Shown here piece after piece: positions 6,205 to 38,159 of a stretch of DNA of 58,409 bases. Where the stretch lies: IMG/VR virus record IMGVR_UViG_3300029319_000050, positions 1 through 58,409 of that record; one strand, 5' to 3'. The number at the start of each line of letters is the position of its first letter. Position 1 is the first letter of the stretch. A model generated the notes under the pieces. The model was not told the origin of the DNA. It worked only from the letters and a program-made list of their open reading frames with translations, and ran no database searches. This DNA comes from a virus (lineage: Duplodnaviria; Caudoviricetes). Made by a program: the position numbers and the translations under genes.

Positions 6205-6657
6205 CTATGCGTGGTGGACAACGTTTTCAGGATCTTTGATAACAGCTAAAACTTCATCATCATTTAACAATCGCATTTCGCCACCGTCAATTTTGATTCT
6301 AGCTCCAGCATATCTGCCAAAGATAATCCAGTCGCCTTTTTTGCACCAAGCCCCACAAGGATACTTGTCAGGATCAGTGTAAGCGTCAGGTCCGAGATCG
6401 ACTACATACCCCACGTTAGTAGATAGCCTTTCTCTTTCAACCGTTTCTTTTGCTAATACTATACCACCTTTTGTCTTTTTAGCAATGGTATAGGGCAAGA
6501 TTAAAATTCTATAGCCTGTGGGAACAGGAAGTTTATCAATTTCCCTCTCACAGTCTTCTGGGGTTGTTATACCTTTAGTTTCTTCAACTACAGGTTCTTT
6601 TTTCGTTCTATTTGAAAAATCTAGTACTTTATCTGGTACTTTCTCACTCATCTTCAT
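6205..6657 (-). CDS. groES: Co-chaperonin GroES (Cpn10) homolog
   Basis: PTGYRILI, mobile loop KTKGGIVL, VVDLGPDAY, KKGDWIIFGRYAG, LLNDDEVLA. Confidence 0.9.
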   Translation of the reverse strand: MKMSEKVPDKVLDFSNRTKKEPVVEETKGITTPEDCEREIDKLPVPTGYRILILPYTIAKKTKGGIVLAKETVERERLSTNVGYVVDLGPDAYTDPDKYPCGAWCKKGDWIIFGRYAGARIKIDGGEMRLLNDDEVLAVIKDPENVVHHA

Positions 6658-6853
6658 CCTCCCAAAGACTTATTTCATTTTCAAGCAGGTCTTTAATAGT
6701 AAATTCAGCGAAGCTTAGACCTGAAAGCTCGCCTATAATGCGTTGATACTGTTCATGGTCTTGTATAGACCCAGATTTCAACGTTTCCGTAAGTTGTGCG
6801 TCTCTTTCTCTGACTAATTTGAGAAATTTACGTACTAAATCAATATAATCCAC
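6644..6853 (-). CDS. Small conserved head-module protein
   Basis: SGSIQDHEQYQRIIGELSGL motif; coupled to its neighbours. Confidence 0.7.
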   Translation of the reverse strand: MDYIDLVRKFLKLVRERDAQLTETLKSGSIQDHEQYQRIIGELSGLSFAEFTIKDLLENEISLWEDEDE

Positions 6854-7062
6854 TAATCAGGCTGTTTATGGAACATTAACCCTTGTGTTGCTGCTCCTGT
6901 ACCTCTAGTTTTTACTAAAGTTGCCTTTCTTTCGTTAACTTTTACGTTAACTGGTCCGCCTTGTCGCATTTCTGGCGCATATCCGAATTTAGCAACCAAT
7001 TTTTTAGGTAATTTACGTAAACCTGCTCCTTTTTTTCCTTTTGGTATCGGTTTTTTCTCCAT
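6853..7062 (-). CDS. Small basic protein
   Basis: RBS AGGAG; GLRKLPK and RGTGAATQG motifs. Confidence 0.7.
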   Translation of the reverse strand: MEKKPIPKGKKGAGLRKLPKKLVAKFGYAPEMRQGGPVNVKVNERKATLVKTRGTGAATQGLMFHKQPD

Positions 7063-7075
7063 TTTAACTCCTATT

Positions 7076-9514: not shown

Positions 9515-10188
9515 TAGTCTTTATTATATAAATTATCAAATGTTATGTTAGGATCCATATAACTATCATGTCCTTCAGCAGAATGGATATGTTGAGAAGG
9601 TGTAAAATCTGGAGCACCTTCTCCAGTAACCCAAAGTGCTGGGCTTGTTGCTCTAACTCGGTTATTCGGTAAAGCTACAAAATTACCAGTCCACTTACCT
9701 GCATCAGTCAAGTATAACACATGACTTTGTTTATGTTGTGCAGGATCATCAGCTATACTGTTTCCTGTATAATCTACAGTGAATAAATACCTACCAGTAA
9801 AAAATTCACCACCTATTTTACATTGCCAAGGGCTAGAACTTACTCGATCCATTACTACAACACTATGGTTACGTGATTCACAATCCCAAGGTTGAGCTAA
9901 ATGATCTTCCATAGGTTCGCCCCAATCTTCCAATGGTATATCAGCAATTAATGCTTGTATAGGCATACGTGCCCACATTGCTCCTCCATGCACACTTGAT
10001 TCTTGATCATCTAATTCTATTTCACAGCCTGTAAAAACAACTTGAAAAGATAATGATCTATCTGGAATAGTATTTACAGCTATAGCAAGGGCATGAAGGT
10101 ATTCTCCATGATAGTCTTGATGATTAGCTGTAAATTCCTTTCGCACCCAGCATTTAAAATGCGGGATGTTAGAAATTAAATAAGACAC
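9514..10188 (-). CDS. Conserved hypothetical phage protein
   Basis: 224-aa ORF (GTG start) with HGGAMWARMPIQAL and YLFTVDY...QHKQSH motifs; function unknown. Confidence 0.75.
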   Translation of the reverse strand: MSYLISNIPHFKCWVRKEFTANHQDYHGEYLHALAIAVNTIPDRSLSFQVVFTGCEIELDDQESSVHGGAMWARMPIQALIADIPLEDWGEPMEDHLAQPWDCESRNHSVVVMDRVSSSPWQCKIGGEFFTGRYLFTVDYTGNSIADDPAQHKQSHVLYLTDAGKWTGNFVALPNNRVRATSPALWVTGEGAPDFTPSQHIHSAEGHDSYMDPNITFDNLYNKD

Positions 10189-10191
10189 TTT

Positions 10192-10302
10192 CTATCTTTT
10201 TTTCTTGCGTCCCATTTTCTTTTTGACACCACCTCGTGATCTCATTTTAGATTTTTTCTTTACTCCGCCACCAGCACGGTACTTAGGCATTTTCTTTGCC
10301 AT
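10192..10302 (-). CDS. 36-aa Lys/Arg-rich peptide (not in the ORF track)
   Basis: AGGAG RBS; MAKKMPKYRAGGGVKKKSKMRSRGGVKKKMGRKKKR; fills the gap between genes. Confidence 0.75.
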   Translation of the reverse strand: MAKKMPKYRAGGGVKKKSKMRSRGGVKKKMGRKKKR

Positions 10303-10310
10303 AATTACTC

Positions 10311-11831
10311 CTAATAATATACTTTATTAAAATACGATGGTTCGTCATCGAACTCATCGCTCCAATCGTTACTTAATCTAAGGAATCCTCCTTGCCTAAA
10401 TCTCATTAAGGCTTGAGTCATACTATCAACTAAGTCGTCATGCTCTCCGTTAGGAAAGTCGTTCACTTCTTCTACAAGTTCTTCAGCCCAATTCGTTTGG
10501 GGCACCCAAACTTTACCGTCAGCTAAAATTGAACTTATTGAGTTCACACGAGCTACTTTATCCTGTCCTCTGCTTGGAGTAAAGTTAAATATAGGTATCC
10601 CTACCGCTCTTAATTCTTGTGTTAATGGTAAGCCACTAGCTTTCGCTTCAATAATAACAGAATCAGGTTGCCATTGTTTATAATATTTTATTGCAGCTTC
10701 TTTTAATTCAGGGAAATCAAACCGATCATGAAGGACATCTAATAAAATAATATGAGCTTGTTTTCCATCGTAATATTCTTCACCTATTTTACCACTAGGG
10801 TAAAAAATCCCCCATGTAGTAACCGCTGTATAGTCAGCCGATTCTTTCTTTAAAAATGCAGTATCAAAAGATTGAATAATATATTCACAATAAGGCGGAT
10901 TATCATCTTCCCAAGTATTAAACCATTCTTTAGGGATAATTGCCATTTCCCCACCAGTAGGTTGTTGCATATAATTAGCAAACCATTTAGAAGGTGAAAT
11001 ACTAGCTTTTACTTTTTCTAATTCATCTAACGACCAAAAATTACTCCAAAGCGGATTACCGCTAGGTAAAATAGCAGGGAACTCAATTATTTCCCACTGG
11101 TCAGCGTTTTCATCGGTAGCCATCTTTTTAATTAATTTACCTGTTAAATCACGTTTCGACCACCTAGTCATAACGATAATAATCGCACCTCCTGGCTGTA
11201 ACCTTTGTCGTGGACCTGTCATAAACCATTCGTAAGTATCGTCTAAAGCTTTTTCCGACATTGCATCTTGTTCAGAATGTGGGTCATCAATAATAAATAA
11301 ATCCGCACCACGACCTGCAAGTGCACCTCCAACACCAGCAGCAAAGTATTCCCCACCTTTCGATGTATTCCATTTACCTGCTGATTTAGAATCTGCTTTT
11401 AGAGATGTTTCTGGAAAGAGTTCTTGATATTCTTCACTATCAATTAAATCCCTTATTTTTCTACCAAAATTAACTGCAAGGTCAGCGGTATGGGTTGCTT
11501 GAATAATTTTTAAATCAGGTTTTTTACCTAATAAATATGCAGGAAAATAATGAGAAGCGAACTCTGATTTAGTATGACGTGGTGCCATATTAACGATAAC
11601 ACGTTTAGTTTTACCTTCCGCTATATCATCAAAAACTTTTGCCATCTTTTTATGGTGTTCCCCTTCGATAAAGGTATCCCATAAAGTTTTTACAAAGGTT
11701 AAAAAATTAGAAGTTGCAGCATCACGTTGATTACGTTTTTGTAATTCTTCTAATAAAAGTAAATATTCTTTAGCCTCGTTTTCGCTTAGATACGAAAGGT
11801 CTATATTTTGAAGTTGCTCTAATTGAGCCAT
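10311..11831 (-). CDS. terL: Terminase large subunit
   Basis: Walker A-like MAPRHTKS, Walker B IIDDP, coupling motif MTRW, nuclease SFDTA...IEAKASG...HDDLVDS. Confidence 0.95.
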   Translation of the reverse strand: MAQLEQLQNIDLSYLSENEAKEYLLLLEELQKRNQRDAATSNFLTFVKTLWDTFIEGEHHKKMAKVFDDIAEGKTKRVIVNMAPRHTKSEFASHYFPAYLLGKKPDLKIIQATHTADLAVNFGRKIRDLIDSEEYQELFPETSLKADSKSAGKWNTSKGGEYFAAGVGGALAGRGADLFIIDDPHSEQDAMSEKALDDTYEWFMTGPRQRLQPGGAIIIVMTRWSKRDLTGKLIKKMATDENADQWEIIEFPAILPSGNPLWSNFWSLDELEKVKASISPSKWFANYMQQPTGGEMAIIPKEWFNTWEDDNPPYCEYIIQSFDTAFLKKESADYTAVTTWGIFYPSGKIGEEYYDGKQAHIILLDVLHDRFDFPELKEAAIKYYKQWQPDSVIIEAKASGLPLTQELRAVGIPIFNFTPSRGQDKVARVNSISSILADGKVWVPQTNWAEELVEEVNDFPNGEHDDLVDSMTQALMRFRQGGFLRLSNDWSDEFDDEPSYFNKVYY

Positions 11832-16476: not shown

Positions 16477-16770
16477 TTAAAACATTTCTAAAATGCCATC
16501 ACCTAAATAATGGTAATTAGCTTTCGTGGTTACGTTAGTAGCTGTTATATCGCAACCTTCCCAATTAAGTAATATCGGATCATCCGTTAAGCTATCAACT
16601 GGATAACCATTATTAAAATCAAGTAATCCTAGTTGCTTATCAATCACGTTATACCATAACTCACCGTAAAGTTGTTCTACTTTTTGGAAATCTTTTAAAG
16701 TACCTTTAAACATCAATATGTAGATTTCTTTTGGTTTAGACTCTACATAAAAATCGTATATTGTATCCAT
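16477..16770 (-). CDS. Early hypothetical protein
   Basis: ORF packed in an operon. Confidence 0.7.
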   Translation of the reverse strand: MDTIYDFYVESKPKEIYILMFKGTLKDFQKVEQLYGELWYNVIDKQLGLLDFNNGYPVDSLTDDPILLNWEGCDITATNVTTKANYHYLGDGILEMF

Positions 16771-16773
16771 AAG

Positions 16774-17079
16774 TCAGTTGTTGCTTACTAATACTGGCAT
16801 TCGTAGACTAAATCCCGTGCCGCCTTCATACTCAAAATGTATAAAGTTGTAGTCTTCATTCGTTTCTACATGAACAATAACATTACTCGGCTCGGTAACT
16901 CGACCTAACTGCATATCGTCTGCATGAACAACCTCTTGTTTGAAACTACCTAAATCTTTCGAATATATAATTTCGCTAAAGTGGTCTGTTGGATCATAGA
17001 GATCTTCCACTCGTTGCGGACTATCGCCAGTAGAGATTTCTATATTTTGGCAACCTGTTTTTATAAATAGTTCTTTCAT
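16774..17079 (-). CDS. Early hypothetical protein
   Basis: ORF with AAGGAGA RBS. Confidence 0.75.
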   Translation of the reverse strand: MKELFIKTGCQNIEISTGDSPQRVEDLYDPTDHFSEIIYSKDLGSFKQEVVHADDMQLGRVTEPSNVIVHVETNEDYNFIHFEYEGGTGFSLRMPVLVSNN

Positions 17080-17103
17080 ATTAATTCTCCTTAATTAGGA
17101 GCC

Positions 17104-17337
17104 TCAAAGGACTCCAAACCTCCCTGTCTGTTTAGCCTCGTCTACGATACTTTGGACTTGCTCGTCTGTTGGTGGCGTCCAATGTATTGTATCAGGTATT
17201 TGTTTAAGTGCATGACCTAGCCTTGCTAGTGACTCAGTAGCCTCTTTAGTGCGGTCTACTCTGCTACATAATGCCCATATACCGATGAAATGTTCTATTA
17301 CTTCGGCTAATGGTTTATTAGATATTTCGTTCTTCAT
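17104..17337 (-). CDS. Early hypothetical protein
   Basis: ORF with AAGGAGG RBS behind a promoter. Confidence 0.75.
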   Translation of the reverse strand: MKNEISNKPLAEVIEHFIGIWALCSRVDRTKEATESLARLGHALKQIPDTIHWTPPTDEQVQSIVDEAKQTGRFGVL

Positions 17338-19148: not shown

Positions 19149-19446
19149 CTTCTCCTCCTTGCTCGAAATAATCTGCGTTATCACTTGTTATACCTTGATA
19201 TTTATCAGGTAGTTCTTCTACTAAACTTAATGCTATTAGTTCCTCTTCATGTGGATCTAAATATATGGTTACTAAACCAGACCATCTTACATAAACAAAA
19301 CAACTTGGTGCTACTTGGTAAACGTCATTTACAAAAGTTTCTAGTTTAAGAGGTTTCTCAAAAGCATTTAATACAAAGTATGTTGCTTGACCGTAATCTG
19401 GGAATGTTAAATTTTTAACCATCTTTCTTAAATAAACCGTCTTCAA
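19126..19446 (-). CDS. Early hypothetical protein
   Basis: ORF overlapping its neighbours in an operon; start uncertain (probably MVKNL). Confidence 0.6.
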   Translation of the reverse strand: MKTVYLRKMVKNLTFPDYGQATYFVLNAFEKPLKLETFVNDVYQVAPSCFVYVRWSGLVTIYLDPHEEELIALSLVEELPDKYQGITSDNADYFEQGGEDEPTKSN

Positions 19447-19840
19447 GTTTACCTGTACGTTTACTAATCACTTTATAAACTTCGTTCATCGTATATCCAG
19501 GATTAAAACCTAACTGTTTACAAAGTACAATCAAACATACAAAACAATCACCTAGTCCGTCAATAATATTAGGTTTATCTTTATAGGCGATAGCTTTAGC
19601 AGTTTCACCAACTTCTTCTACAAGTTTTAACATCTGCATAGTTGGTTGTACATCTTCGTTTAATAGACCACGATCCTCTGCCCACTCGATAATATTAGCG
19701 ACTGCTATATCTTCACGCTCTGGGCATATATCTTTTAATGGGATAGGGATCGTTACTAAAGGCTCACCTTCAATTAGCCTATCTTCTTCTACTTGATAAT
19801 TAGGTTCATCTCTTTCCATATTAACTTCCCATAAATGCAA
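19415..19840 (-). CDS. MazG-like nucleotide pyrophosphohydrolase
   Basis: WAEDRGL...QMLKLVEEVGETAKAI...IIDGLGDCFVCL...VYKVISKRTGKLEDGLFKKD. Confidence 0.85.
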   Translation of the reverse strand: MHLWEVNMERDEPNYQVEEDRLIEGEPLVTIPIPLKDICPEREDIAVANIIEWAEDRGLLNEDVQPTMQMLKLVEEVGETAKAIAYKDKPNIIDGLGDCFVCLIVLCKQLGFNPGYTMNEVYKVISKRTGKLEDGLFKKDG

Positions 19841-25969: not shown

Positions 25970-26159
25970 TTTTCTCTCCGTAAGTTGTGCGTCTTTCAAC
26001 GTTCTTTGGTTTTGGTGTATAAACTAAAACAAACGCACCACAGTTTGGGCAACTTAAATTTGTTTCCATCACGTAATCTTCATCTTCCTCTATATCGTGA
26101 TCTCCACCCCATATAAGTTGTGTATTACAGTTCCAACAATTCACTTTATCTCTCCCCAA
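25947..26159 (-). CDS. Small zinc-ribbon protein
   Basis: CWNCNTQLIWGGDHD...TNLSCPNCGAFVLVY. Confidence 0.7.
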   Translation of the reverse strand: MGRDKVNCWNCNTQLIWGGDHDIEEDEDYVMETNLSCPNCGAFVLVYTPKPKNVERRTTYGEKNEQRIKT

Positions 26160-28000
26160 CTTGCTCCTACTTCCATATCTATTTCCATAGGCACCGTTAA
26201 ATTAACACAATTAATCATAGCTTCTTTAACTTTATCTTTTTGTTCTTCGGTTGCTAGAGAAAAATCTAGTTCATCGTGCACTTGTAATAATGGTATTATT
26301 CCTTGTTTACGTACCTCTAACATTGCTAACTTGGTCATATCTGCTGCTGAACCTTGAATTAATCTATTTAATGCTTTATATGTATATGCACGTTTTAATT
26401 CATTACCATATTTTTCTTCAGCCTTTTCCTTAGGTAATGGTGATACTTCATTAAAACTACCATTCGGTTCCCATAAATCAAACCTAGCTTTCCTACCACC
26501 TAATGTTTTTACATACCCTCTATCAGAACCTAACTTAGTACAATAATCCATAAGCCCTTTTATAAAAGGAACTTTAGTATGGTATTGAGATAGTAGCTCG
26601 TTACCTTCTTCCTCAGATACCCCTAGCTCGTTTATAAGCTTTTTAACACCCATCCCATACGTTAGCCCTAGATTAATATCTTTAGCTTGTTTGCGAGGTA
26701 TGCTTGCCATATCTGCTACGATTTGGTGGAAGTCAGCATTACCACTTAAATAACTTTCTACTGCTTGATCAGCCCCTGTCATTTTTAAACGACTAGCATA
26801 ATGGACAGTAATTCTTGGTTCTTGTTGGCTATAATCAAAACAACACCACTCTTCTCCATCTTCTGGAATAAATATCGAACGGATCATTGGACCTATTTCA
26901 GGATCTCTTGCAGGCACTTGTTGTAAGTTTGGATTAGAATAACTAAACCTACCTGTAACTGTACCACCTATCTCTGACCTAGAACTATGTGCTTCTGCAT
27001 GTATTCTACCGTTTACTTCATGGTCAAAGATCATTTTCTTTATAAAAGTGCCACCAGCTTTGTTATATTTACGAGCCTTAGCAATAGCTTTAGGTAGCTC
27101 GTGTTCGTGGTTTTCTAACCAATTAGCTTGGAAACTTGGTGAGCCTTTTTCAGTATATGGGTAATATAAATTAATTTTATCGAATGCTTTTTGTATAGAT
27201 GCGTTAGCCCATATATCCACTTCTACACCGTATTGTCTTTTGATATCTAATAAGATTGCTTGTTCTTTTACCGTAAGTTGTTGCATAATCTTTTCAGCTT
27301 TTTCTAGGTCAACCCTAACCCCAAGCATCCGCATTTCTATAACAAGCTTTACTATTTGCATTTCAGTATTAAAAGCTTTATCTAAGTTCTCATCAGATAT
27401 TTTAGTCTTTAATACTTTCCATAAATCTAACGTAAGTGCTGCATCTTGTGCAGCATAAGGTCCAACATATTTGGACGGTAACTTCCACATCTCACCTTTA
27501 TCTTTTAATCCATAAGCATTTAGTGCCTCGTCTAATAAGTTTTCATCTTTTTTATCACCACAATATTTTTCACCTAAATTATCTAGTGAATATGAAAAAG
27601 CATTTTCATCTAATAATGGTGCAGCAATAAGAGTATCTTTTATATCTCCTTTTACTTCAAAACCTTCAGATGTGAGCCACCCTAAATCGTATGCAGCGTT
27701 ATGAAATACTTTTGTATTATCTGCATCTAGTTGTTTTTTAAGCCACCTATAAACAATACCTTTATCTAAATTACCTCCACCAAGATGAGAGAAAGGAAGA
27801 TAAATACTTCCCTCCTCCCAAGCCACTGCAACACCTATTATCTCTCCATCTTTTCTAGCCCAACCTGATCCCTTAGTCCTCAAATTAGGGTCTCGAGTTT
27901 CTAAGTCTATACTGAACTCTCGACATCCAGTTAGGTTAGGTAGAGTTTCTGGGATAACCCAGTCTGTTGCAGGGCTAAACAGTGTCTTCTGTAGGCTCAC
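26141..28000 (-). CDS. polA: DNA polymerase family A (3'-5' exonuclease plus polymerase)
   Basis: Exo I DLET, Exo II HNAAYD, Exo III YAAQD; TGRFS..NPNLQQVP; motif A DYSQQEPR, B RKQAKDINLGLTYG, C QVHDEL. Confidence 0.95.
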   Translation of the reverse strand: MSLQKTLFSPATDWVIPETLPNLTGCREFSIDLETRDPNLRTKGSGWARKDGEIIGVAVAWEEGSIYLPFSHLGGGNLDKGIVYRWLKKQLDADNTKVFHNAAYDLGWLTSEGFEVKGDIKDTLIAAPLLDENAFSYSLDNLGEKYCGDKKDENLLDEALNAYGLKDKGEMWKLPSKYVGPYAAQDAALTLDLWKVLKTKISDENLDKAFNTEMQIVKLVIEMRMLGVRVDLEKAEKIMQQLTVKEQAILLDIKRQYGVEVDIWANASIQKAFDKINLYYPYTEKGSPSFQANWLENHEHELPKAIAKARKYNKAGGTFIKKMIFDHEVNGRIHAEAHSSRSEIGGTVTGRFSYSNPNLQQVPARDPEIGPMIRSIFIPEDGEEWCCFDYSQQEPRITVHYASRLKMTGADQAVESYLSGNADFHQIVADMASIPRKQAKDINLGLTYGMGVKKLINELGVSEEEGNELLSQYHTKVPFIKGLMDYCTKLGSDRGYVKTLGGRKARFDLWEPNGSFNEVSPLPKEKAEEKYGNELKRAYTYKALNRLIQGSAADMTKLAMLEVRKQGIIPLLQVHDELDFSLATEEQKDKVKEAMINCVNLTVPMEIDMEVGASWGEIK

Positions 28001-28304
28001 TTAGTTTATCCTTAGCAAGTTGGTCGAATATATGCGACTCTACTAATAAGAGGTATCGTCTAAGATCACCAATATCGTCTAATATACCGTCTGCACTAGG
28101 GTCTTGTAGGGCAGTCTCAAAGACATCGTAACCAAGCTTTTTAACTTGGTTCTCTATCCTATCCCACTTGCGAGCTAACATCATGAAAGCACCTACACCA
28201 CCACGTTGTTTCCAACTTGTACCGTAAGACTGCTCAGCAACTTTTAGGGCTTCTACATCACCCCATGCAAGGTCTTCCATTAGCTTATAATTATTACCAC
28301 TCAT
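27975..28304 (-). CDS. All-alpha NTP pyrophosphatase-like protein (Nmad1/DUF1599-like)
   Basis: SYGTSWKQRG...RKWDRIEN...ILDDIGDLRRYLLL; adjacent to the hydroxymethylase. Confidence 0.65.
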   Translation of the reverse strand: MSGNNYKLMEDLAWGDVEALKVAEQSYGTSWKQRGGVGAFMMLARKWDRIENQVKKLGYDVFETALQDPSADGILDDIGDLRRYLLLVESHIFDQLAKDKLSEPTEDTV

Positions 28305-29335
28305 TTATCTCTCCTCTTAATATAAAGTACACAAGCCTCTCTCCAATCTTTTTGTATGATTGTTTCAGCCATTTCTAAAGCGTTTTGTTTTTCCCCACTC
28401 TTATATAAGTTCCAACTTTTAATAATAGGTATAGCAACACGTTCTAAGAATGGGTTATTAAATTTATAATCGTTACGGTAATCACCGTCCATTACAAACT
28501 TTAATTCTCTATCAAAAGTTGTTTTATCTTTTACTAAAGGTATAGTCTGCTCATGTAGAAGCTGTGCAACCTTAGTATCATTAAATCTAGTTAAACTAGT
28601 TATTGGGTTAATAGTAGAAACTTTATCTTTCCATATTGGGTAATCTATATAGATGTGTAAATTATCTGTAAAGTGATAATAAGCACCTACTTTTACACCA
28701 ATCATTGCTGCCATATATTCATGTAATACACTAAAGTGAACCATGTTAGCACCAAAACAACCCCATATTAAATCGTTAGACCTGTTAGTTACAGTCATAC
28801 GTAAAGCACCGTCTCTAATTTTAAAATAGATTTGGGTGTTACAAGGAACATCTTTACCTTTACCGTCAAGATGATTTAAATCTTGTTCTGTACCCCACAT
28901 CTGTAATACACAACGTCTATCATCTGGATTTCTTTTTAACATATTTATAATTACTTGTAGTTGGTCTTTACCAAACATCCACCTCCACCTATAACCATAA
29001 GCACCCCATAAACTAATCCCATCATCACTGAACTCACGCATACGAGGTACAAAATGTTCCATAGAAGATAAATCTCCACGACCTGCTAACATCCATAAAC
29101 TTTCAGCTAAATGGAAAAAAGGATTACAATCCCTTACAGAATCTGCTAATACTCTTACCGTTGGGTATTGGTATTTAATTAAGATAGGATCTTTTAGTTC
29201 CCAAACTTTACCGTTGCGACTATCGTATTCAATGTAATTAATATCAGAACCAAATAAATCTAATCCTTTATAAAACGCATCGTTTACATTAAACGCTGTT
29301 ATCGTATGCATATTTACTCCTTGTTCTTCCTTCAC
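28301..29335 (-). CDS. Thymidylate-synthase-fold dUMP hydroxymethylase
   Basis: NPFFHLAESLWMLAGR, GAYGYRWR, DRRCVLQMW, catalytic PCN, RSND, Asn specificity residue (GAN, dUMP), NLHIY; adjacent to a 5-hmdU kinase. Confidence 0.85.
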   Translation of the reverse strand: MKEEQGVNMHTITAFNVNDAFYKGLDLFGSDINYIEYDSRNGKVWELKDPILIKYQYPTVRVLADSVRDCNPFFHLAESLWMLAGRGDLSSMEHFVPRMREFSDDGISLWGAYGYRWRWMFGKDQLQVIINMLKRNPDDRRCVLQMWGTEQDLNHLDGKGKDVPCNTQIYFKIRDGALRMTVTNRSNDLIWGCFGANMVHFSVLHEYMAAMIGVKVGAYYHFTDNLHIYIDYPIWKDKVSTINPITSLTRFNDTKVAQLLHEQTIPLVKDKTTFDRELKFVMDGDYRNDYKFNNPFLERVAIPIIKSWNLYKSGEKQNALEMAETIIQKDWREACVLYIKRRDK

Positions 29336-30158
29336 CTTTTAATATCCTTGAGTATTTATCAAACTCACATAAACCACCTTCTACTTCTCTAAGTTCAAAG
29401 TTATGTCTATTAGAATTCATAATATGTATAGGTAATCTTTCTTTACATATTTCAAATAACTCTCTCATCTCACCCACCCAATCATTAGACTTTCTTGTAT
29501 AATCAAGTGGTCTACCTGTTAACCTGTTAAGTCCACGCATAGCTCCTGGACCAGCATTAGCCCAAGTCAATCTATCTTTAGCATCTTTACCAAACATAGT
29601 AAAACTCAAATCAGTAACTACCTCATATGCCATAAATGGACCTTGATAAGGAAAGGTTCGTAAGTAACTCCACATACCTTCTAAAGAGTTTTTATGTTTA
29701 TGAGCTTCTTCAAGTATTTCATCTTTTCTACCCCACATATAATTTATACATCGGATAATACCTTGTAGCTTATCTAAACCGTCAGGGCTTTTAATTACAT
29801 ATGCACCAGTAATCCATTGATCTTGTTTTCTAATTTGTACATCGGCAATCAAGGGATCCCAGTCTGTTAATAAATCGTATTTAACTAAAGTCTTACCTGT
29901 TTTAATTAAATTAAACCACCTAAAGATAACAGTTGCCATAAAAATATCCTCTGTGTTACCTAAAGGCTCACGGACATTTTCTATATACCACCTGCTAGTT
30001 CTATCGTCGTTACGAAATACTTGACAGAATTTATATTCTTTTAGTATTTCGTCTTCAGTCCAAGGGGGATCAGAACCTTCTTCTTCTTTTTTGACTCTGA
30101 TCCTTTCCCTTTCGTTTATCCAATAGATATACCTATCTAATTCCTCCTCGATAAACAT
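29289..30158 (-). CDS. 5-hydroxymethyl-dU DNA kinase (aGPT-Pplase1 family)
   Basis: WINERERIR...PPWTEDEILKEYKFCQVFRNDDRTSRW...FRWFN...GPFMAYEVVTDL...GPGAMRGL...EGGLCEFDKY. Confidence 0.85.
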   Translation of the reverse strand: MFIEEELDRYIYWINERERIRVKKEEEGSDPPWTEDEILKEYKFCQVFRNDDRTSRWYIENVREPLGNTEDIFMATVIFRWFNLIKTGKTLVKYDLLTDWDPLIADVQIRKQDQWITGAYVIKSPDGLDKLQGIIRCINYMWGRKDEILEEAHKHKNSLEGMWSYLRTFPYQGPFMAYEVVTDLSFTMFGKDAKDRLTWANAGPGAMRGLNRLTGRPLDYTRKSNDWVGEMRELFEICKERLPIHIMNSNRHNFELREVEGGLCEFDKYSRILKGEGRTRSKYAYDNSV

Positions 30159-30997
30159 TACTTAGTTAATCTCCAAAAACAGTTATTAGATGTTTCAGGA
30201 TAAAATGTTGCGGCTGCAACTCTTAAAAACTGTCTACCGAACCTTTCTTCTAACATACTAAGTTGTTCAGGTGTCCAAATTTGTTTTGCACGTTGTGCTT
30301 GGTTGAACCTACGCATCTGTGTAAAGACACCTACTACAGACTCTAATTGAAAATACCTTTCTAATAAGTCCTTTAGTTCTTGAAAGCCCCACTCGTAAAT
30401 ATGGTCTTCTGGTAATTTATCATTAGAACCATCGTGGTTAGGTGTAGATATAAATACTGTTCCACCCTTTTTAACAACTCTGCTAAGTTCTGCAATCCAA
30501 GGCTCTACAGCTTCTCTAGGCATATGTTCTATAACTTCTGTAGACCAAGCTACGTCTATAGATTCGTTATTATGGGGTAGGATAGGATCAACACTAACGT
30601 CTTTAATTTCCAAAGTAGCGTTAAAGTTTTTCAACCATGTAGTTTCGTCAAGATGACAACCGTTACCTGACCAATATTGTATTTCCTGAAATGATGCAGG
30701 ATCGATATCGTATCCATAATATGAAGATATAACATCAGACTTTTTAACTACATATGATTTATATAAAGTCCTCAGTACCCAAACTTCACCACACCCAATC
30801 TCTAACGTATCTAACGGTCTACCTTGACGTTTAGATTCGTCTATTAAGAATGATGCAATCTTTTCAAACCTAGACATATGAGCAATCTCATCAGGTCTAA
30901 AGTTCGCAAAAACTCCTGCATGAGCAATATTCATACGAGTATTTTTACAATCGTTTGGATTTTCCTCCGCAGTTAACTTTTTTCTAATACTTGGCAT
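30158..30997 (-). CDS. Class I SAM-dependent methyltransferase (small-molecule / O-methyltransferase type)
   Basis: Motif I LEIGCGE, motif II YGYDID, STEVIEHM, KKGGTVFISTPN; no DPPY/NPPY or PC motif. Confidence 0.85.
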   Translation of the reverse strand: MPSIRKKLTAEENPNDCKNTRMNIAHAGVFANFRPDEIAHMSRFEKIASFLIDESKRQGRPLDTLEIGCGEVWVLRTLYKSYVVKKSDVISSYYGYDIDPASFQEIQYWSGNGCHLDETTWLKNFNATLEIKDVSVDPILPHNNESIDVAWSTEVIEHMPREAVEPWIAELSRVVKKGGTVFISTPNHDGSNDKLPEDHIYEWGFQELKDLLERYFQLESVVGVFTQMRRFNQAQRAKQIWTPEQLSMLEERFGRQFLRVAAATFYPETSNNCFWRLTK

Positions 30998-31054
30998 AAG
31001 CTTCTCCTTTCTTGTTTACTTTTAAGTATAGATTATATATTACAAAAAACCTCT

Positions 31055-32572
31055 TTACAAGTCAAAATACTTCCTAGTTGTAGGTTCAACTAAATAAAGA
31101 CGTTTCTTTGCCCTTGTCATACCGACATAAAAAACCCTAGTTTCATCGTCAGGATCTCGTTGGTAACTATTAAAAACTTTATGTGTCATATCTGTTAGTA
31201 GTATTACGTTATCAGCCTCTGCTCCTTTTGCTGCATGTATAGTCGATATACGTATACGTGGTTGTTTTAATACCTTCTCTCCTCGTCTTAGCATAGCTTG
31301 TAGATAACTTCTCTCTGTTATAGAGATCATATCTAAAGAATCGAACCACTTAGCTGTAGGTAACTTACCCACTATACCTTCTATATAAGTTCTATCTACT
31401 AATTGTTCCCCTTCAAATAACTTTAATTGTCTTTTAGGCACTTGTTTTATATATCGCAAAAAAGTACCACATTCTTGCATAGTAAGTTTTTCACCTTTAT
31501 GAAACCTTTGCCAATTACGTACACCCTCTAATTTAATCCCTGTAATACTTGGGCTACCTTTTACTTCAAAAAACCAACCCTCGTGTCTACAATGGTCTAT
31601 AACGTTTTGTAATAAATAATTTGTTCTACCTAAAACAAGCCATGTACCGTCACTCATATCTATATGTTCAAACCCTCGTTCCCAACTAACTTCACCTTGA
31701 TCTTCTTTTGGGTTCCAAGATTTAGCTACTCTTTTAGATAATCTACCGATAGTTTTTCGAGCTAATTCGTGTACTGATTTAGGTATCCTATAACTTTGTT
31801 CTAGTACCTTTGCGTTCTTACAATTACTAATAAGATAATCTACATCAGCTCCTGCCCATTTATAAATAGCTTGATCGTCATCACCTGCTATATATACTTT
31901 ATGACTGCCTTCTATAATTTTACGTACCACTGCCCATTGCAAAGGACTTAAATCTTGTGCTTCATCTATAAATAAAGCATCAAGTTTAGGTGCATAACCT
32001 CTTTGTAAAAAGAAATCTAACATATCAGTATAATCGTATAATCTCCTAGACTTCTTATAGGCTTCGTACCCTCTACTAAATCTATCTAAAGCATACCAAT
32101 TAACTGCATCTTCTACTTCATGCCATAAATCTTCTAATGGTATTTTACGCATTCTTGCTAGGTTATCTATAAACATCAACCTATCGTCTTTAGTCATACT
32201 ATAAATACTTCCGTCTTCTGTACTTTGAGAACCTGTTAATTTTATATTTAATTTTTCGTTTAGTTCTATAAGGTGAGTACGTTCAAATACATCTTCTTTA
32301 TTTAAACCTAGTTGATGAAAACTTAATGAATGCAATGTTTTAAAATAAGGTAAATCTTTTTTAGATAATTCAAACTTATGCATTGCTCTCTCCATACCCT
32401 CGTTTACAGCTCGTTTAGTAAACGTAAAGAAACCAATCTTATCTGGAGATACTCCACTATCTAGTTCATTTTCTATGAGCTGTAATAACGTTGATGTCTT
32501 CCCAGTTCCTGGAGGTCCAAGAATCACCTGTGTTTTATCAGGTAGCATTTGTTTTCTTAGCTGGGGATACAA
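31055..32572 (-). CDS. UvrD/Rep superfamily 1 helicase
   Basis: GPPGTGKT, FTFTKRA, TLHS, IDEAQD, GDDDQAIY, QSYRIP, STIHAAKGAEAD, YVGMTRAK; start probably MLPDK. Confidence 0.92.
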   Translation of the reverse strand: MYPQLRKQMLPDKTQVILGPPGTGKTSTLLQLIENELDSGVSPDKIGFFTFTKRAVNEGMERAMHKFELSKKDLPYFKTLHSLSFHQLGLNKEDVFERTHLIELNEKLNIKLTGSQSTEDGSIYSMTKDDRLMFIDNLARMRKIPLEDLWHEVEDAVNWYALDRFSRGYEAYKKSRRLYDYTDMLDFFLQRGYAPKLDALFIDEAQDLSPLQWAVVRKIIEGSHKVYIAGDDDQAIYKWAGADVDYLISNCKNAKVLEQSYRIPKSVHELARKTIGRLSKRVAKSWNPKEDQGEVSWERGFEHIDMSDGTWLVLGRTNYLLQNVIDHCRHEGWFFEVKGSPSITGIKLEGVRNWQRFHKGEKLTMQECGTFLRYIKQVPKRQLKLFEGEQLVDRTYIEGIVGKLPTAKWFDSLDMISITERSYLQAMLRRGEKVLKQPRIRISTIHAAKGAEADNVILLTDMTHKVFNSYQRDPDDETRVFYVGMTRAKKRLYLVEPTTRKYFDL

Positions 32573-32729
32573 CCTCTATGTGCCATATCTCACCTCGTTC
32601 TAATGCTTTCTTAGCCTCTACTTTAAGTTCATCTAAAGTTTTTTCCATAACGTTTTCACAATATATAACTACCTTCATATAATCAAGGTTTTGTTTTTGT
32701 GATAAATTTATTTCTACTTTCTCTTTCAT
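32538..32729 (-). CDS. Hypothetical protein
   Basis: Short ORF coupled to its neighbours. Confidence 0.6.
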   Translation of the reverse strand: MKEKVEINLSQKQNLDYMKVVIYCENVMEKTLDELKVEAKKALERGEIWHIEVVSPAKKTNAT

Positions 32730-33310
32730 ATTCCTGTTCTAAATGTTAAATTAATCCTATCACCTATGGGTGGCACAGTATCTAAAATAGCATGGGTACT
32801 GTTCATTTGACTCTTACCGTCAAAAATAAGTACGTCACCGTCTTCTAATATGTATTGTTTTGTACGTATAATATTTAACATAGCAGTATTAATTACACTA
32901 GTGTTACTAGTTCTTTTAATATATTTTTCGTAAGTTCGCCACTCGAATACTCTAGGCGAACCGAAAGATACAGAAGCAACTAAATCTTTTTGTGTAGGCA
33001 CTGTATCAGAATGGTGGGGTATACCTTTACCATTATTGTCGTAATAGCCACATAAACAAAAATTAAATTTAACTTCTTTACCTAACTCTCTTTTAATTAA
33101 AGTTTGTAAATTATCTCTAATATAAATCATAGGTTGAGTCCATGGATCAGGATCATAATCCCTTCCTGCATAACTAAACTGTTTATCACCAAAAGCTCTA
33201 GTAGGTCTACCCATAACTTTTTTCCCGTCATACTCTCTAAGTTTAGGTCTATCCCATTTCTGTATTAAAGGGCTATATCCCCCCATACCTTCTTTAATAA
33301 ATTTAATCAT
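32726..33310 (-). CDS. AlkB-family 2OG-Fe(II) dioxygenase
   Basis: FNFCLCGYY..GKGIPHHSD...VASVSFGSPRVF...LEDGDVLIF...THAI...RINLTFR (HxD...H...RxxxxxR). Confidence 0.88.
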   Translation of the reverse strand: MIKFIKEGMGGYSPLIQKWDRPKLREYDGKKVMGRPTRAFGDKQFSYAGRDYDPDPWTQPMIYIRDNLQTLIKRELGKEVKFNFCLCGYYDNNGKGIPHHSDTVPTQKDLVASVSFGSPRVFEWRTYEKYIKRTSNTSVINTAMLNIIRTKQYILEDGDVLIFDGKSQMNSTHAILDTVPPIGDRINLTFRTGI

Positions 33311-36722: not shown

Positions 36723-38159
36723 ATGAAATATAAATTTAAAACTGTGCCTTATGAGCACCAATTAAAAGCACTCAAAGAAAGCTGGAATAAGCCTTCTTAC
36801 GCTTATTTTATGGAAATGGGTACAGGTAAATCTAAAGTGCTCATCGATAATATAGCCCTTTTGTATGATAGAGGAGCCATAAATACAGCTGTTATTATTG
36901 CACCTAAGGGTGTATATCTAAACTGGTTAGATAAAGAAATACCTAATCATATGCCAGACCATGTAGAAACATATATAGCTTTATGGAAAGCCTCACCAAC
37001 TAAAAGAAAACAAGAGGCTTTAATGAAACTTTTTACAGAAAAAGATAAATTAAGGATTTTAATAATTAATGTAGAAGCTTTTTCATCACAAAAAGGTAAA
37101 GCGTTCACAGAAAAGTTTGTTAGGTCTACGCAATGTTTATTAGCTGTAGATGAAAGTACAACTATTAAAAATCCGAAAGCAGCAAGAACTAAAAATTTAT
37201 TAAAAATTGCTGACTATGCAAAATTTAAAAGGATATTAACAGGCTTTCCGATTACTAAATCACCTATGGATTTTTACACACAGTTTAAATTTTTAGATAC
37301 ACACATATTAGGCTATCAATCTTTTTATGCATTCCAAAACCACTTTGCAGAGGTCATTCAAAGGTCAATAGGGTCTCATAGCTTTCGTGAAATAAAAAGT
37401 TTTCGTAACTTAGACGAACTAAAACGTCTTACACAAGCCTATAGTTACAGGGTTTTAAAGAAAGAATGTTTAGATTTACCTGATAAAATTTATAACAAAC
37501 ATTATGTAGAACTAACCCCTGAACAAAATAAATTATATAAACAAATGAAAAAAGATGCGATGGCTATCTTAGATCAAGAAACAATTACAGCTACATCTGT
37601 CATGACACAATTATTAAGATTACATACGATGATATGTGGTTTCGTTAAAACAGACCAAGATGAAGTTATAGATATAGATAATAATAGATTAGATGCATTA
37701 TTAGAATTAGTTTCGTTTATGGACGGTAAAGTAATTATATGGGCTAATTATATCCATAATATCGAAAGAATTACCGAAGCACTTAAAAAAGTTTATGGAG
37801 GTGATAGTGTTGTTAGTTATTATGGTTCTACTAATTTAGATGATAGAAAAGAAGCAATAAAATTATTTCAATCTGAACAAGAACACCCTAGATTTTTTGT
37901 AGGTAATCAAATGACTGCAGGTTATGGTATTACGTTAACGGAAGCTAACAACGTAATTTATTATTCTAATAGTTTCGATTTAGAAAAAAGATTACAGTCA
38001 GAAGATCGAGCTCACCGTATAGGACAAGTTAATAAAGTTACTTATTATGATTTAACAGCTAAAGATACAATAGATGAAAAGATTGTTAAAACGTTATGTT
38101 CTAAACACGATTTAGCTAAACAAGTTTTAGGTGACGGTTATCAGTCTTGGCTTTCTTAA
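36723..38159 (+). CDS. SNF2-family (SF2) helicase
   Basis: PYEHQ, MEMGTGKS, VDEST.IKN, LTGFPI, GITLTEA, QSEDRAHRIGQ. Confidence 0.92.
   Translation: MKYKFKTVPYEHQLKALKESWNKPSYAYFMEMGTGKSKVLIDNIALLYDRGAINTAVIIAPKGVYLNWLDKEIPNHMPDHVETYIALWKASPTKRKQEALMKLFTEKDKLRILIINVEAFSSQKGKAFTEKFVRSTQCLLAVDESTTIKNPKAARTKNLLKIADYAKFKRILTGFPITKSPMDFYTQFKFLDTHILGYQSFYAFQNHFAEVIQRSIGSHSFREIKSFRNLDELKRLTQAYSYRVLKKECLDLPDKIYNKHYVELTPEQNKLYKQMKKDAMAILDQETITATSVMTQLLRLHTMICGFVKTDQDEVIDIDNNRLDALLELVSFMDGKVIIWANYIHNIERITEALKKVYGGDSVVSYYGSTNLDDRKEAIKLFQSEQEHPRFFVGNQMTAGYGITLTEANNVIYYSNSFDLEKRLQSEDRAHRIGQVNKVTYYDLTAKDTIDEKIVKTLCSKHDLAKQVLGDGYQSWLS

What the first reader, a model, noticed from the sequence alone, without database searches (positions are those of the whole stretch)
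27975..30997. Thymidine hypermodification operon with a methyltransferase in place of the amino-acid:DNA transferase: probable new DNA base
Seen: overlapping genes SAM methyltransferase, 5-hmdU DNA kinase, dUMP hydroxymethylase, Nmad1-like pyrophosphatase and polA; the MTase stop overlaps the kinase start (TAATG). Known: in phages such as M6, ViI and phiW-14, 5-hmdU is phosphorylated on DNA and the phosphate is then displaced by an amino-acid/amine transferase (aGPT-Pplase2), with PLP or radical-SAM tailoring in some. Seen: I recognise none of those enzymes in this complete genome, and the MTase is of small-molecule/O-methyl type rather than a DNA m6A/m4C/m5C type. Inference: the end product may be a methyl-capped 5-phosphomethyl-dU or 5-methoxymethyl-dU, giving anti-restriction chemistry I do not know to be described.
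Basis: partly seen in the sequence, partly recalled or inferred. Interest (0 to 1): 0.9.

Follow-up and report, generated by a model that had tools for sequence, protein, structure and literature searches.

The report
Kinase-less hydroxymethyluracil methylation cassette, marine phage
An uncultured marine phage carries a tightly packed gene set that probably puts hydroxymethyluracil into its DNA in place of thymine and then methylates it with a Hen1-like enzyme, which would give a DNA base that has not been described.

Summary
The genes are there and overlap as described, including the TAATG junction. Two labels are wrong. The "5-hmdU DNA kinase" (29289-30158) matches only PF18723, the helical clade-1 aGPT-Pplase (M6 gp55 type). 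It has no P-loop. The 109-aa protein matches no pyrophosphatase family.

The 58-kb genome (CheckV 99%) has no P-loop 5-hmdU kinase, clade-2 amino-acid:DNA transferase, PLP, radical-SAM or glycosyltransferase gene. The methyltransferase sits where the kinase sits in PaMx11 and M6. It carries the Hen1 metal-binding residues (E154, E157, H158, H199).

Methyltransferase and helical genes overlap or abut in 54 of 55 related viral contigs. Among 80 contigs with the helical gene, it pairs with this methyltransferase (29), a kinase (30 in all) or a glycosyltransferase (12 in all). The methyltransferase never co-occurs with the other two. Distant relatives of it sit beside cytosine-type TS-fold enzymes in other phages.

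Best reading (confidence 0.4): metal-dependent O-methylation of 5-hmdU in DNA, giving 5-methoxymethyl-dU. A methyl-capped phosphomethyl base is unlikely. Nothing is shown biochemically.

Earlier agents of this scan reached a similar reading on sister genomes.

The parts
31032..31060 (-). Promoter-like site in the 57-base gap between the UvrD-like helicase gene and the methyltransferase gene
   Evidence: TTGTAA-17-TATAAT, 10 of 12 matches. Weak: the region holds fewer such sites (20) than its shuffles (mean 41.2), so this is position only, not proof.
30158..30997 (-). Hen1-like, probably metal-dependent, class I SAM methyltransferase (279 aa)
   Evidence: Pfam Methyltransf_23 4.3e-11. Model pLDDT 92.8. 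Family profile hits Hen1 chains 4xcx, 5wy0, 3jwg-j, 4xrp and 3htx at 3e-10 to 2e-7, sharing ExxEH, STPN and DHxxEW. E154/E157/H158/H199 are kept in 57 of 57 lineage copies and 4 of 4 distant phage homologues.
29289..30158 (-). Clade-1 aGPT-Pplase / HMUDK_hel helical protein (289 aa), with no kinase domain
   Evidence: PF18723 4.6e-43, the only family matched. About 40% identical to PaMx11 gp50. Model pLDDT 91.3, all-helical. Best but weak fold matches are HhH glycosylases MagIII and OGG1. E260, C264 and E265 are invariant in 18 of 18 and 10 of 10 aligned sequences.
28301..29335 (-). TS-fold enzyme, probable dUMP hydroxymethylase (344 aa from GTG; the homologues align from Met9, start near 29311)
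   Evidence: PF00303 1.4e-21, phrog_5131 2e-106. 42-45% identical to M6 gp58, PaMx11 gp51 and PhiJL001 gp24. Asn at the pyrimidine-specificity column. Below every ThyA equivalog cut-off in NCBIfam.
27975..28304 (-). Conserved 109-aa protein of unknown function that travels with the TS-fold gene
   Evidence: No credible family match. Homologues found in 52 of 59 methyltransferase-bearing loci, and beside the TS-fold gene in kinase-type and glycosyltransferase-type cassettes.
26141..28000 (-). Family A DNA polymerase with 3'-5' exonuclease, last gene of the run
   Evidence: DNA_pol_A 7.4e-61, DNA_pol_A_exo1 8.6e-11. Its start overlaps the 109-aa gene.
19415..19840 (-). MazG-type NTP pyrophosphohydrolase; a candidate for clearing dTTP/dUTP, membership in the pathway inferred only
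   Evidence: Pfam MazG 1.2e-07. NCBIfam MazG models match weakly, below cut-off.

Best explanation
This is a kinase-less variant of the phage thymidine-hypermodification pathway.

Step 1 (inferred from homology): the TS-fold enzyme turns dUMP into 5-hydroxymethyl-dUMP. This is phosphorylated, presumably by host enzymes, and the phage polymerase builds it into DNA as 5-hmdU.

Step 2 (inferred from motifs and gene context): the Hen1-like methyltransferase uses a divalent metal held by E154, E157, H158 and H199 to activate the 5-hydroxymethyl oxygen, and transfers the methyl group of SAM to it. The product is 5-methoxymethyl-dU in DNA.

Step 3 (role inferred, least certain): the clade-1 aGPT-Pplase encoded by the overlapping downstream gene is the constant partner of whichever enzyme decorates the hydroxymethyl group, be it kinase, glycosyltransferase or methyltransferase. 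It probably finds and flips 5-hmdU out of the helix, or engages its C6 through the conserved cysteine.

The likely benefit is protection of phage DNA from restriction enzymes and glycosylases. No step has been shown by experiment.
For: Absence of rival enzymes. The genome is 99% complete by CheckV. All 64 ORFs of 100 aa or more, and 6 of 7 of 90-99 aa, were scanned with Pfam without finding a kinase, clade-2 transferase, glycosyltransferase, PLP or radical-SAM enzyme. PF18748 and PF18724 give nothing at E<=10. phmmer --max with 16 known pathway proteins against the six-frame translation gave nothing below E=0.1, apart from the helical protein itself. The only true Walker A motif is in the UvrD helicase.

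Gene order. It is kinase-helical-TS in PaMx11 and M6, and methyltransferase-helical-TS here.

Conservation. Methyltransferase and helical genes overlap or abut in 54 of 55 loci where both are complete, at 48-94% methyltransferase identity.

Partner survey. Of 80 viral loci holding the helical gene, 29 have this methyltransferase, 13 kinase plus transferase, 15 kinase, 10 glycosyltransferase, 2 kinase plus glycosyltransferase, and 11 none of these. The methyltransferase never co-occurs with kinase, transferase or glycosyltransferase.

Hen1 link. The Hen1 metal tetrad is conserved. The plant and human residues are named in PMC10781085 (passages read).

Independent association. Distant homologues of the methyltransferase lie beside TS-fold genes in 4 of 4 GenBank phages and 14 of 17 viral loci of another subfamily.

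Substrate supply. The TS-fold enzyme has the uracil-type Asn and groups with the M6 and PaMx11 enzymes.
Against: There is no biochemical evidence for any step.

Fold search places the methyltransferase only among generic small-molecule class I enzymes, at TM about 0.5. The Hen1 link rests on profile alignment and motifs.

The helical protein keeps an invariant Glu-x3-Cys-Glu motif like the catalytic site of the clade-2 transferase (PMC11472151). It may therefore be an enzyme with its own product rather than a helper.

All 29 methyltransferase-type loci belong to one phage lineage, so the tight coupling is one evolutionary event seen many times.

In the distant phages the methyltransferase sits among nucleotide-level enzymes and without a helical protein. 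That fits action on nucleotides as well as on DNA.

Whether the TS-fold enzyme hydroxymethylates rather than methylates is inferred only.
Confidence: 0.4

Rival explanations
1. Same product, earlier stage. The methyltransferase O-methylates the free nucleotide (5-hydroxymethyl-dUMP to 5-methoxymethyl-dUMP), and the polymerase incorporates the finished base. The helical protein does something else on DNA.
For: In AXL3, PW916, two Manatee Spring phages and 14 of 17 loci of a distant subfamily, the homologous methyltransferase sits with NTP pyrophosphatase, nucleotide kinase, TS-fold enzyme and dCMP deaminase, and without a helical protein. Fold neighbours are small-molecule methyltransferases.
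Against: In this lineage the gene is translationally coupled to a protein of the DNA-acting aGPT-Pplase group in 54 of 55 loci. The genome has no recognisable dNMP kinase suited to a bulkier nucleotide.
Confidence: 0.15
2. The helical protein is the real transferase. Using its conserved cysteine, it replaces the hydroxyl (or a methoxy leaving group made by the methyltransferase) with an unknown nucleophile or a hydride. The methyltransferase either activates the substrate or tailors the product. The final base would then be neither 5-hmdU nor its methyl ether.
For: E260, C264 and E265 are invariant across clade 1, including M6 gp55, PaMx11 gp50 and PhiJL001 gp19. hhalign lines this motif up with E243, T244 and C247 of PaMx11 gp46, the metal ligands and the nucleophile (PMC11472151). 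How 5-hmdU becomes thymidine in phiW-14 and SP10 is stated to be unknown (PMC5889632, passage read).
Against: The profile match is short and weak: 18 columns, E=0.089, probability 0.6. M6 gp55 was not needed for the reconstituted reaction (PMC8989533). A methyl ether is a poor leaving group (general chemistry). No donor-making enzyme is encoded (Pfam scans).
Confidence: 0.15
3. The methyltransferase is a true Hen1-type RNA 3'-end 2'-O-methyltransferase, for example to protect or repair tRNA. It lies next to the DNA-modification genes only by descent.
For: After two plant phosphoethanolamine N-methyltransferases, the best-scoring solved relatives by profile are Hen1 enzymes, with the metal tetrad conserved.
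Against: No Pnkp, RNA ligase or RNA-binding domain is found in the genome (Pfam scans of 70 ORFs). Methyltransferase homologues keep company with TS-fold pyrimidine-modifying genes in several unrelated phage lineages. The methyltransferase occupies the kinase slot and is mutually exclusive with kinase and glycosyltransferase.
Confidence: 0.08
4. One reading: 5-hmdU is phosphorylated on DNA and the phosphate is then methyl-capped.
For: Pfam names PF18723 '5-hmdU DNA kinase, helical domain'.
Against: There is no P-loop kinase domain anywhere in the genome. The activity was shown for the P-loop protein M6 gp54, not for gp55 (PMC8989533).
Confidence: 0.03

Closest known systems
Thymidine hypermodification clusters of Pseudomonas phages M6 and PaMx11 (Lee et al. 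2018, 2021; PMC5889632, PMC8989533)
   Same: A TS-fold dUMP hydroxymethylase homologue (42-45% identity) and a clade-1 aGPT-Pplase (about 40% identity to PaMx11 gp50) in the same order, just upstream of polA.
   Different: No P-loop 5-hmdU DNA kinase, no clade-2 amino-acid:DNA transferase and no PLP, radical-SAM, FAD or acetyl tailoring enzymes. A Hen1-like methyltransferase fills the kinase slot.
Helical-protein-plus-glycosyltransferase cassettes such as marine phage PhiJL001 (AY576273), uncharacterised
   Same: Clade-1 aGPT-Pplase and a dUMP-type TS-fold enzyme, without a recognisable kinase or clade-2 transferase. One group-transfer enzyme lies beside the helical gene.
   Different: The group-transfer enzyme is a glucosyltransferase, not a methyltransferase. 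Nmad5 and HD-domain genes are present there and absent here.
Hen1 small-RNA 2'-O-methyltransferases (plant HEN1, human HENMT1, bacterial Hen1)
   Same: Class I fold with the ExxEH...H metal tetrad and the STPN and DHxxEW motifs (PMC10781085).
   Different: No dsRNA-binding or Pnkp/ligase partner. The gene context is DNA pyrimidine modification. The N- and C-terminal extensions are family-specific. The substrate is untested.
5-methoxyuridine formation in tRNA (TrmR; CmoA/CmoB).
   Same: O-alkylation of an oxygen carried at C5 of uracil by a SAM-dependent enzyme.
   Different: The substrate there is 5-hydroxyuridine in RNA, not 5-hydroxymethyl-dU in DNA. No sequence relationship was tested.

Membership tests
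Kinase/transferase-type thymidine hypermodification pathway (M6, ViI, PaMx11, phiW-14, SP10) | TS-fold dUMP hydroxymethylase | tested here: inconclusive
   Homologue present: 42-45% identity to the M6 and PaMx11 enzymes, uracil-type Asn, below the ThyA cut-offs. Hydroxymethylase activity is inferred, not shown.
Kinase/transferase-type thymidine hypermodification pathway (M6, ViI, PaMx11, phiW-14, SP10) | P-loop 5-hmdU DNA kinase (PF18748) | tested here: not met
   No match at E<=10. phmmer with M6 gp54 and PaMx11 gp49 gave a best E of 0.2. The only true Walker A motif is in the UvrD helicase.
Kinase/transferase-type thymidine hypermodification pathway (M6, ViI, PaMx11, phiW-14, SP10) | Clade-2 aGPT-Pplase, the amino-acid:DNA transferase (PF18724) | tested here: not met
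   No match at E<=10. phmmer with M6 gp51 and PaMx11 gp46 gave a best E of 0.6. Not found in the Pfam scans of 70 ORFs.
PF18723 HMUDK_hel (clade-1 aGPT-Pplase) | Score above the curated cut-off over the full profile, with the conserved C-terminal Glu-x3-Cys-Glu motif | tested here: met
   148 bits against a cut-off of 25, profile positions 4-276 of 281. E260, C264 and E265 are invariant.
Hen1 2'-O-methyltransferase family | Class I methyltransferase fold with the four metal ligands Glu, Glu, His, His | tested here: met
   Profile alignment to 4xcx and other Hen1 chains. E154, E157, H158 and H199 kept in 57 of 57 lineage copies plus 4 of 4 distant ones. Ligand identities come from PMC10781085.
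Hen1 2'-O-methyltransferase family | Methylates the 2'-OH of the 3'-terminal nucleotide of RNA | not testable with these tools
   Needs an enzyme assay.
Hen1 2'-O-methyltransferase family | Partner or domains for RNA (Pnkp/Rnl in bacteria, dsRNA-binding domains in plants) | tested here: not met
   None found among the 70 ORFs scanned with Pfam.
DNA base methyltransferases (N6-A, N4-C, C5-C) | Match to the DNA methylase families | tested here: not met
   Only Methyltransf_23, 11, 25, 12 and 31 matched.
Thymidylate synthase ThyA (equivalog) | Score above the NCBIfam equivalog cut-off | tested here: not met
   Best scores were 75 bits against a cut-off of 174.55, and 54.9 against 108.35.

The most novel reading that the evidence does not exclude
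A virus-specific family of Hen1-like, metal-dependent O-methyltransferases caps the hydroxymethyl group of 5-hydroxymethylpyrimidines. The target would be hmU here and hmC in AXL3-type phages. The products, methoxymethyl-uracil and methoxymethyl-cytosine, would be DNA bases unknown in nature yet common in marine viromes. The clade-1 aGPT-Pplase, whose function has been open since 2013, would be the shared 5-hmU-engaging module that kinases, glycosyltransferases and methyltransferases all plug into.
Probability: 0.3. Interest if true: 0.85.

Novelty: new variant of a known kind. Interest (0 to 1): 0.74.

Why it matters
If the prediction holds, it adds a new natural DNA base and a new reaction on DNA or its precursors, O-methylation of a hydroxymethylpyrimidine. 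It would be found in a phage group that recurs in marine, estuary, sponge and biofilter metagenomes.

It would show that the hydroxymethyl handle on phage DNA is decorated by interchangeable enzymes at one locus: kinase, sugar transferase or methyltransferase. It would also give a testable role to the clade-1 aGPT-Pplase, which was dispensable in the M6 reconstitution and has no assigned function (PMC8989533).

An enzyme that alkylates 5-hmU or 5-hmC from SAM could also be useful for labelling these bases. That last point is my inference.

Tried and rejected
Complex prediction of the helical protein with the methyltransferase returned 'no answer' (score 0.00). I take nothing from it either way.

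No RNA holder was listed among the sequencing runs, so expression is untested. I did not lay reads.

blastn of the 3-kb stretch against GenBank phages found nothing.

The contexts of most of the 870 distant methyltransferase relatives could therefore not be read.

The search for related loci failed with alignment A2, which had no conserved stretch. It found no loci for P0024 or P0011. P0017 only re-found the same lineage.

My guesses for a clade-3 Pplase accession were wrong: PF18725 is HEPN_SAV2148 and PF18722 is MazG_C. The full Pfam scans cover that question instead.

PF07659 (DUF1599) was suggested for the 109-aa protein by 11% of one Atlas cluster. It matched nothing in the genome.

The fold search of the helical model did not retrieve the solved clade-2 structures. 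It gave only weak HhH glycosylase hits, best E=0.4. phmmer against PDB gave nothing for either protein.

A search for fused forms of the helical protein found only two long forms, with inserts and no kinase or methyltransferase domain. The 'near' search was saturated by close marine relatives, so kinase-helical fusions were not examined. A fused methyltransferase form was not searched for.

The careful tree search did not finish in 288 s, so the quick tree is what I report.

The supplements of PMC8989533 (cluster figures and contig lists) and Dataset S10 of PMC13229309 may already show methyltransferase-bearing clusters that I could not see.

Rejected readings: a methyl-capped phosphomethyl base, because there is no kinase; and a DNA N6/N4/C5 methylase, because there is no such family match.

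Full report
WHAT IS THERE. The window is a whole IMG/VR virus record of 58,409 bases, 99% complete by CheckV. Nearly all genes are on the minus strand. At the finding's coordinates lie five co-directional genes:
- a class I SAM methyltransferase, 30158-30997, 279 aa
- a 289-aa protein, 29289-30158
- a TS-fold enzyme, 28301-29335
- a 109-aa protein, 27975-28304
- polA, 26141-28000

The methyltransferase stop and the next start share one base in TAATG, and the other three junctions overlap too. A promoter-like site lies in the 57-base gap upstream of the methyltransferase. That scan found fewer sites than its shuffles, so it is a weak pointer only.

THE 'KINASE' IS NOT A KINASE. The 289-aa protein matches one Pfam family, PF18723 'HMUDK_hel' (148 bits, cut-off 25). 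I scanned the M6 proteins for comparison. M6 gp54, the protein shown by experiment to phosphorylate 5-hmdU in DNA (PMC8989533, passages read), is a P-loop protein of PF18748. The neighbouring gp55 is the PF18723 protein. The SN1 genome note calls the gene at that position aGPT-Pplase1 (PMC9476957, passage read). In the M6 lysate reconstitution, gp54 and gp51 sufficed and gp55 could be left out (PMC8989533).

So the window protein is a clade-1 aGPT-Pplase. It is an all-helical protein (model pLDDT 91.3). Its only fold neighbours, all weak, are HhH DNA glycosylases.

It is not a passive-looking protein. E260, C264 and E265 are invariant in 18 of 18 and 10 of 10 aligned family members, including M6 gp55, PaMx11 gp50 and PhiJL001 gp19. 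hhalign lines this stretch up with E243, T244 and C247 of PaMx11 gp46. Those residues are the metal ligands and the nucleophile of the clade-2 transferase (PMC11472151, passages read). The match is short and weak: 18 columns, E=0.089, probability 0.6.

NOTHING IS HIDDEN. PF18748 and PF18724 find nothing in the genome at E<=10. I searched the six-frame translation with phmmer at maximum sensitivity, using 16 known pathway proteins. These included the M6 and PaMx11 kinase, clade-2 transferase, PLP, radical-SAM, FAD and acetyltransferase enzymes, and the PhiJL001 glucosyltransferase. Nothing scored below E=0.1 except the helical protein itself. The only true Walker A motif is in the UvrD-like helicase.

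All 64 ORFs of 100 aa or more, and 6 of 7 of 90-99 aa, were scanned against Pfam. Apart from a MazG pyrophosphatase (19415-19840) and an AlkB-like oxygenase (32726-33310), no further nucleotide- or DNA-modifying enzyme appeared.

The 109-aa protein has no credible Pfam match, only a chance-level sub-threshold hit, and no match in PHROGs or NCBIfam, nor to PF07659. 'Nmad1-like pyrophosphatase' is therefore unsupported.

THE METHYLTRANSFERASE. Its model is confident (pLDDT 92.8). Fold search places it only among generic small-molecule class I enzymes such as TleD, RebM and cyclopropane synthases, at TM about 0.5.

Notes of earlier agents of this scan, written on sister genomes, called it 'Hen1-like'. 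I tested that. A profile of 33 diverse family members (A1) hits human HENMT1 (4xcx, 3.2e-10), bacterial Hen1 (3jwg-j, 4xrp) and plant HEN1 (3htx, 2e-07). These rank directly after two plant phosphoethanolamine methyltransferases. The HENMT1 alignment runs through ExxEH, STPN and DHxxEW. In HEN1 these Glu, Glu, His and His residues hold the Mg2+ that binds the two ribose hydroxyls (PMC10781085, passages read).

The corresponding E154, E157, H158 and H199 are present in 57 of 57 lineage copies, and in 4 of 4 distant homologues from GenBank phages. This points to a metal-assisted O-methyltransferase. The substrate cannot be read from sequence.

CONTEXT IN THE LINEAGE. 59 viral loci encode a relative of the methyltransferase. 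58 of them are one phage lineage, 48-94% identical, keeping the order helicase, methyltransferase, helical protein, TS-fold, 109-aa, polA. In 54 of the 55 loci where both genes are complete, the methyltransferase and helical genes overlap or abut. One locus has a 909-base insert.

CONTEXT ACROSS LINEAGES. I fetched 80 viral loci that hold a clade-1 helical gene. They are the best 80 of 470 confirmed, so not a random sample, and the flanks are 5 kb. I labelled their genes by phmmer:

| Partner near the helical gene | Loci (of 80) |
|---|---|
| this methyltransferase | 29 |
| kinase plus clade-2 transferase | 13 |
| kinase only | 15 |
| PhiJL001-type glycosyltransferase | 10 |
| kinase plus glycosyltransferase | 2 |
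| none of these | 11 |

The methyltransferase was never found together with a kinase, transferase or glycosyltransferase.

In PaMx11 the kinase gene ends on the first base of the helical gene, which is followed by the TS-fold gene. M6 has the same order. Here the methyltransferase occupies that slot.

On a quick tree, the 29 methyltransferase-type helical proteins form one clade (SH-aLRT 98) together with 8 of the 'none' loci (the careful search did not finish). Those 8 are a sister lineage with the same primase and helicase. Read in full in five of them and scanned with Pfam in L128, it has an unknown ORF upstream of the helical gene, and an FkbM-type methyltransferase and a group-1 glycosyltransferase downstream. 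The locus thus behaves as a cassette: the helical protein and the TS-fold enzyme stay, and the group-transfer enzyme changes.

THE WIDER METHYLTRANSFERASE FAMILY. Homologues of 25-26% identity occur in phages AXL3 and PW916 and in two Manatee Spring phages. Each lies beside an NTP pyrophosphatase and a TS-fold enzyme. A dCMP deaminase is present in all four, and a nucleotide-kinase-like gene is recognised or annotated in two of them. No helical protein is annotated in any.

A further subfamily (P0061 type, 28% identity) gave 17 viral loci, 14 of which hold a TS-fold gene. All 18 of these TS-fold proteins carry Asp at the column where the window, M6, PaMx11 and PhiJL001 enzymes carry Asn. From memory, this column corresponds to Asn177 of E. 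coli ThyA and Asp179 of T4 dCMP hydroxymethylase, and it sets uracil versus cytosine specificity.

AXL3 DNA resisted 35 of 37 restriction enzymes and was cut only by two whose sites contain A and T alone (PMC7504290, passages read). That fits a modified cytosine.

So this methyltransferase family keeps company with TS-fold pyrimidine-modifying enzymes in several unrelated phage groups, for uracil and for cytosine. This is the strongest argument that it belongs to the pathway and is not a bystander.

MECHANISM. Most likely (0.4): the TS-fold enzyme makes 5-hmdUMP and the base enters DNA. The Hen1-like enzyme then methylates the hydroxymethyl oxygen, with the metal perhaps bridging O4 and the hydroxyl as it bridges the two ribose hydroxyls in Hen1 (my inference). 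The helical protein presents the base.

Rivals:
- The same chemistry on the free nucleotide (0.15), favoured by the AXL3-type contexts.
- The helical protein is the true transferase through its cysteine, with the methyltransferase activating or tailoring (0.15). Lee et al. note that the conversion of 5-hmdU to thymidine in phiW-14 and SP10 is unexplained (PMC5889632).
- A genuine RNA Hen1 (0.08).

The remainder is 'something else'.

WHAT IS KNOWN. In the held library, 'methoxymethyluracil', '5-methoxymethyluracil' and '5-methoxymethyldeoxyuridine' occur in no paper. None of the 25 listed of the 101 papers holding '5-methoxymethyl' or 'methoxymethyl-2' concerns DNA, judged from titles and abstract starts; the other 76 were not looked at. 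'hydroxymethyluracil' with 'O-methyltransferase' and 'bacteriophage' gave only the T-dioxygenase paper and its preprint.

Neither PMC8989533 nor PMC13458397 links a methyltransferase to these clusters in the passages found. From memory, 5-methoxymethyl-2'-deoxyuridine is known as a synthetic nucleoside, not as a natural base.

LIMITS. Everything rests on sequence, models and gene order. The 29 (or 58) coupled loci are one lineage. The 80-locus survey is biased towards PaMx11-like helical proteins and is limited by flank length and contig ends. The Hen1 relationship is at motif and profile level. Hydroxymethylase activity is inferred. Earlier agents of this scan reached much the same reading on sister genomes. 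That is repetition, not independent evidence.

Noticed in passing
window 32726-33310 (-): An AlkB-like 2OG-Fe(II) oxygenase (PF13532, 7.9e-18) lies two genes upstream of the methyltransferase. It is present in 17 of the 29 methyltransferase-type loci, so it is optional. It could repair stray alkylation or act on the modified base.
   Followed up: partly
L128:4172-9850, also L118, L122, L123: A sister phage lineage with the same primase and helicase has a different cassette. An unknown ORF overlaps the helical gene, which is followed by an FkbM-type methyltransferase, the 109-aa homologue, a group-1 glycosyltransferase, the TS-fold gene, a PD-(D/E)XK nuclease and an HD protein. This suggests a glycosylated, perhaps sugar-methylated, hmU.
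   Followed up: partly
L001 (AXL3), L002, L096, L097; L178-L194: Distant homologues of the methyltransferase lie beside TS-fold enzymes with the cytosine-type Asp. AXL3 DNA resists all tested enzymes whose sites contain G or C (PMC7504290). This is a cultured phage in which the wider prediction could be tested.
   Followed up: partly
L064 (PhiJL001, AY576273) 6493-10781: PhiJL001 has a clade-1 helical protein, a glucosyltransferase, Nmad5, a dUMP-type TS-fold enzyme and an HD protein, but no recognisable kinase or clade-2 transferase. Homologues of its gp18 precede the helical gene in 12 of the 80 loci. Its function is unknown.
   Followed up: partly
window 27975-28304 (-); L100, L102, L107, L109, L120, L136, L162: The 109-aa protein with no family match recurs next to the TS-fold gene in kinase-type and glycosyltransferase-type cassettes too. 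It looks like a core, unnamed component of hmU pathways.
   Followed up: partly
P0001, P0002: Two 528-532-aa forms of the clade-1 helical protein carry an N-terminal extension of about 120 aa and several inserts. They keep the C-terminal Cys-Glu motif.
   Followed up: no
window 6205-6657 (-) and 36723-38159 (+): A Cpn10/GroES-like gene sits in the structural module. A SNF2-type helicase is the only large gene on the plus strand.
   Followed up: no
L004 (NC_007809) 16686-17249: RefSeq annotates the M6 5-hmdU DNA kinase gp54 as 'terminase small subunit'. The clade-1 helical gene of phage PAKlein3 carries the same label. These are probably annotation errors that hide such cassettes.
   Followed up: no
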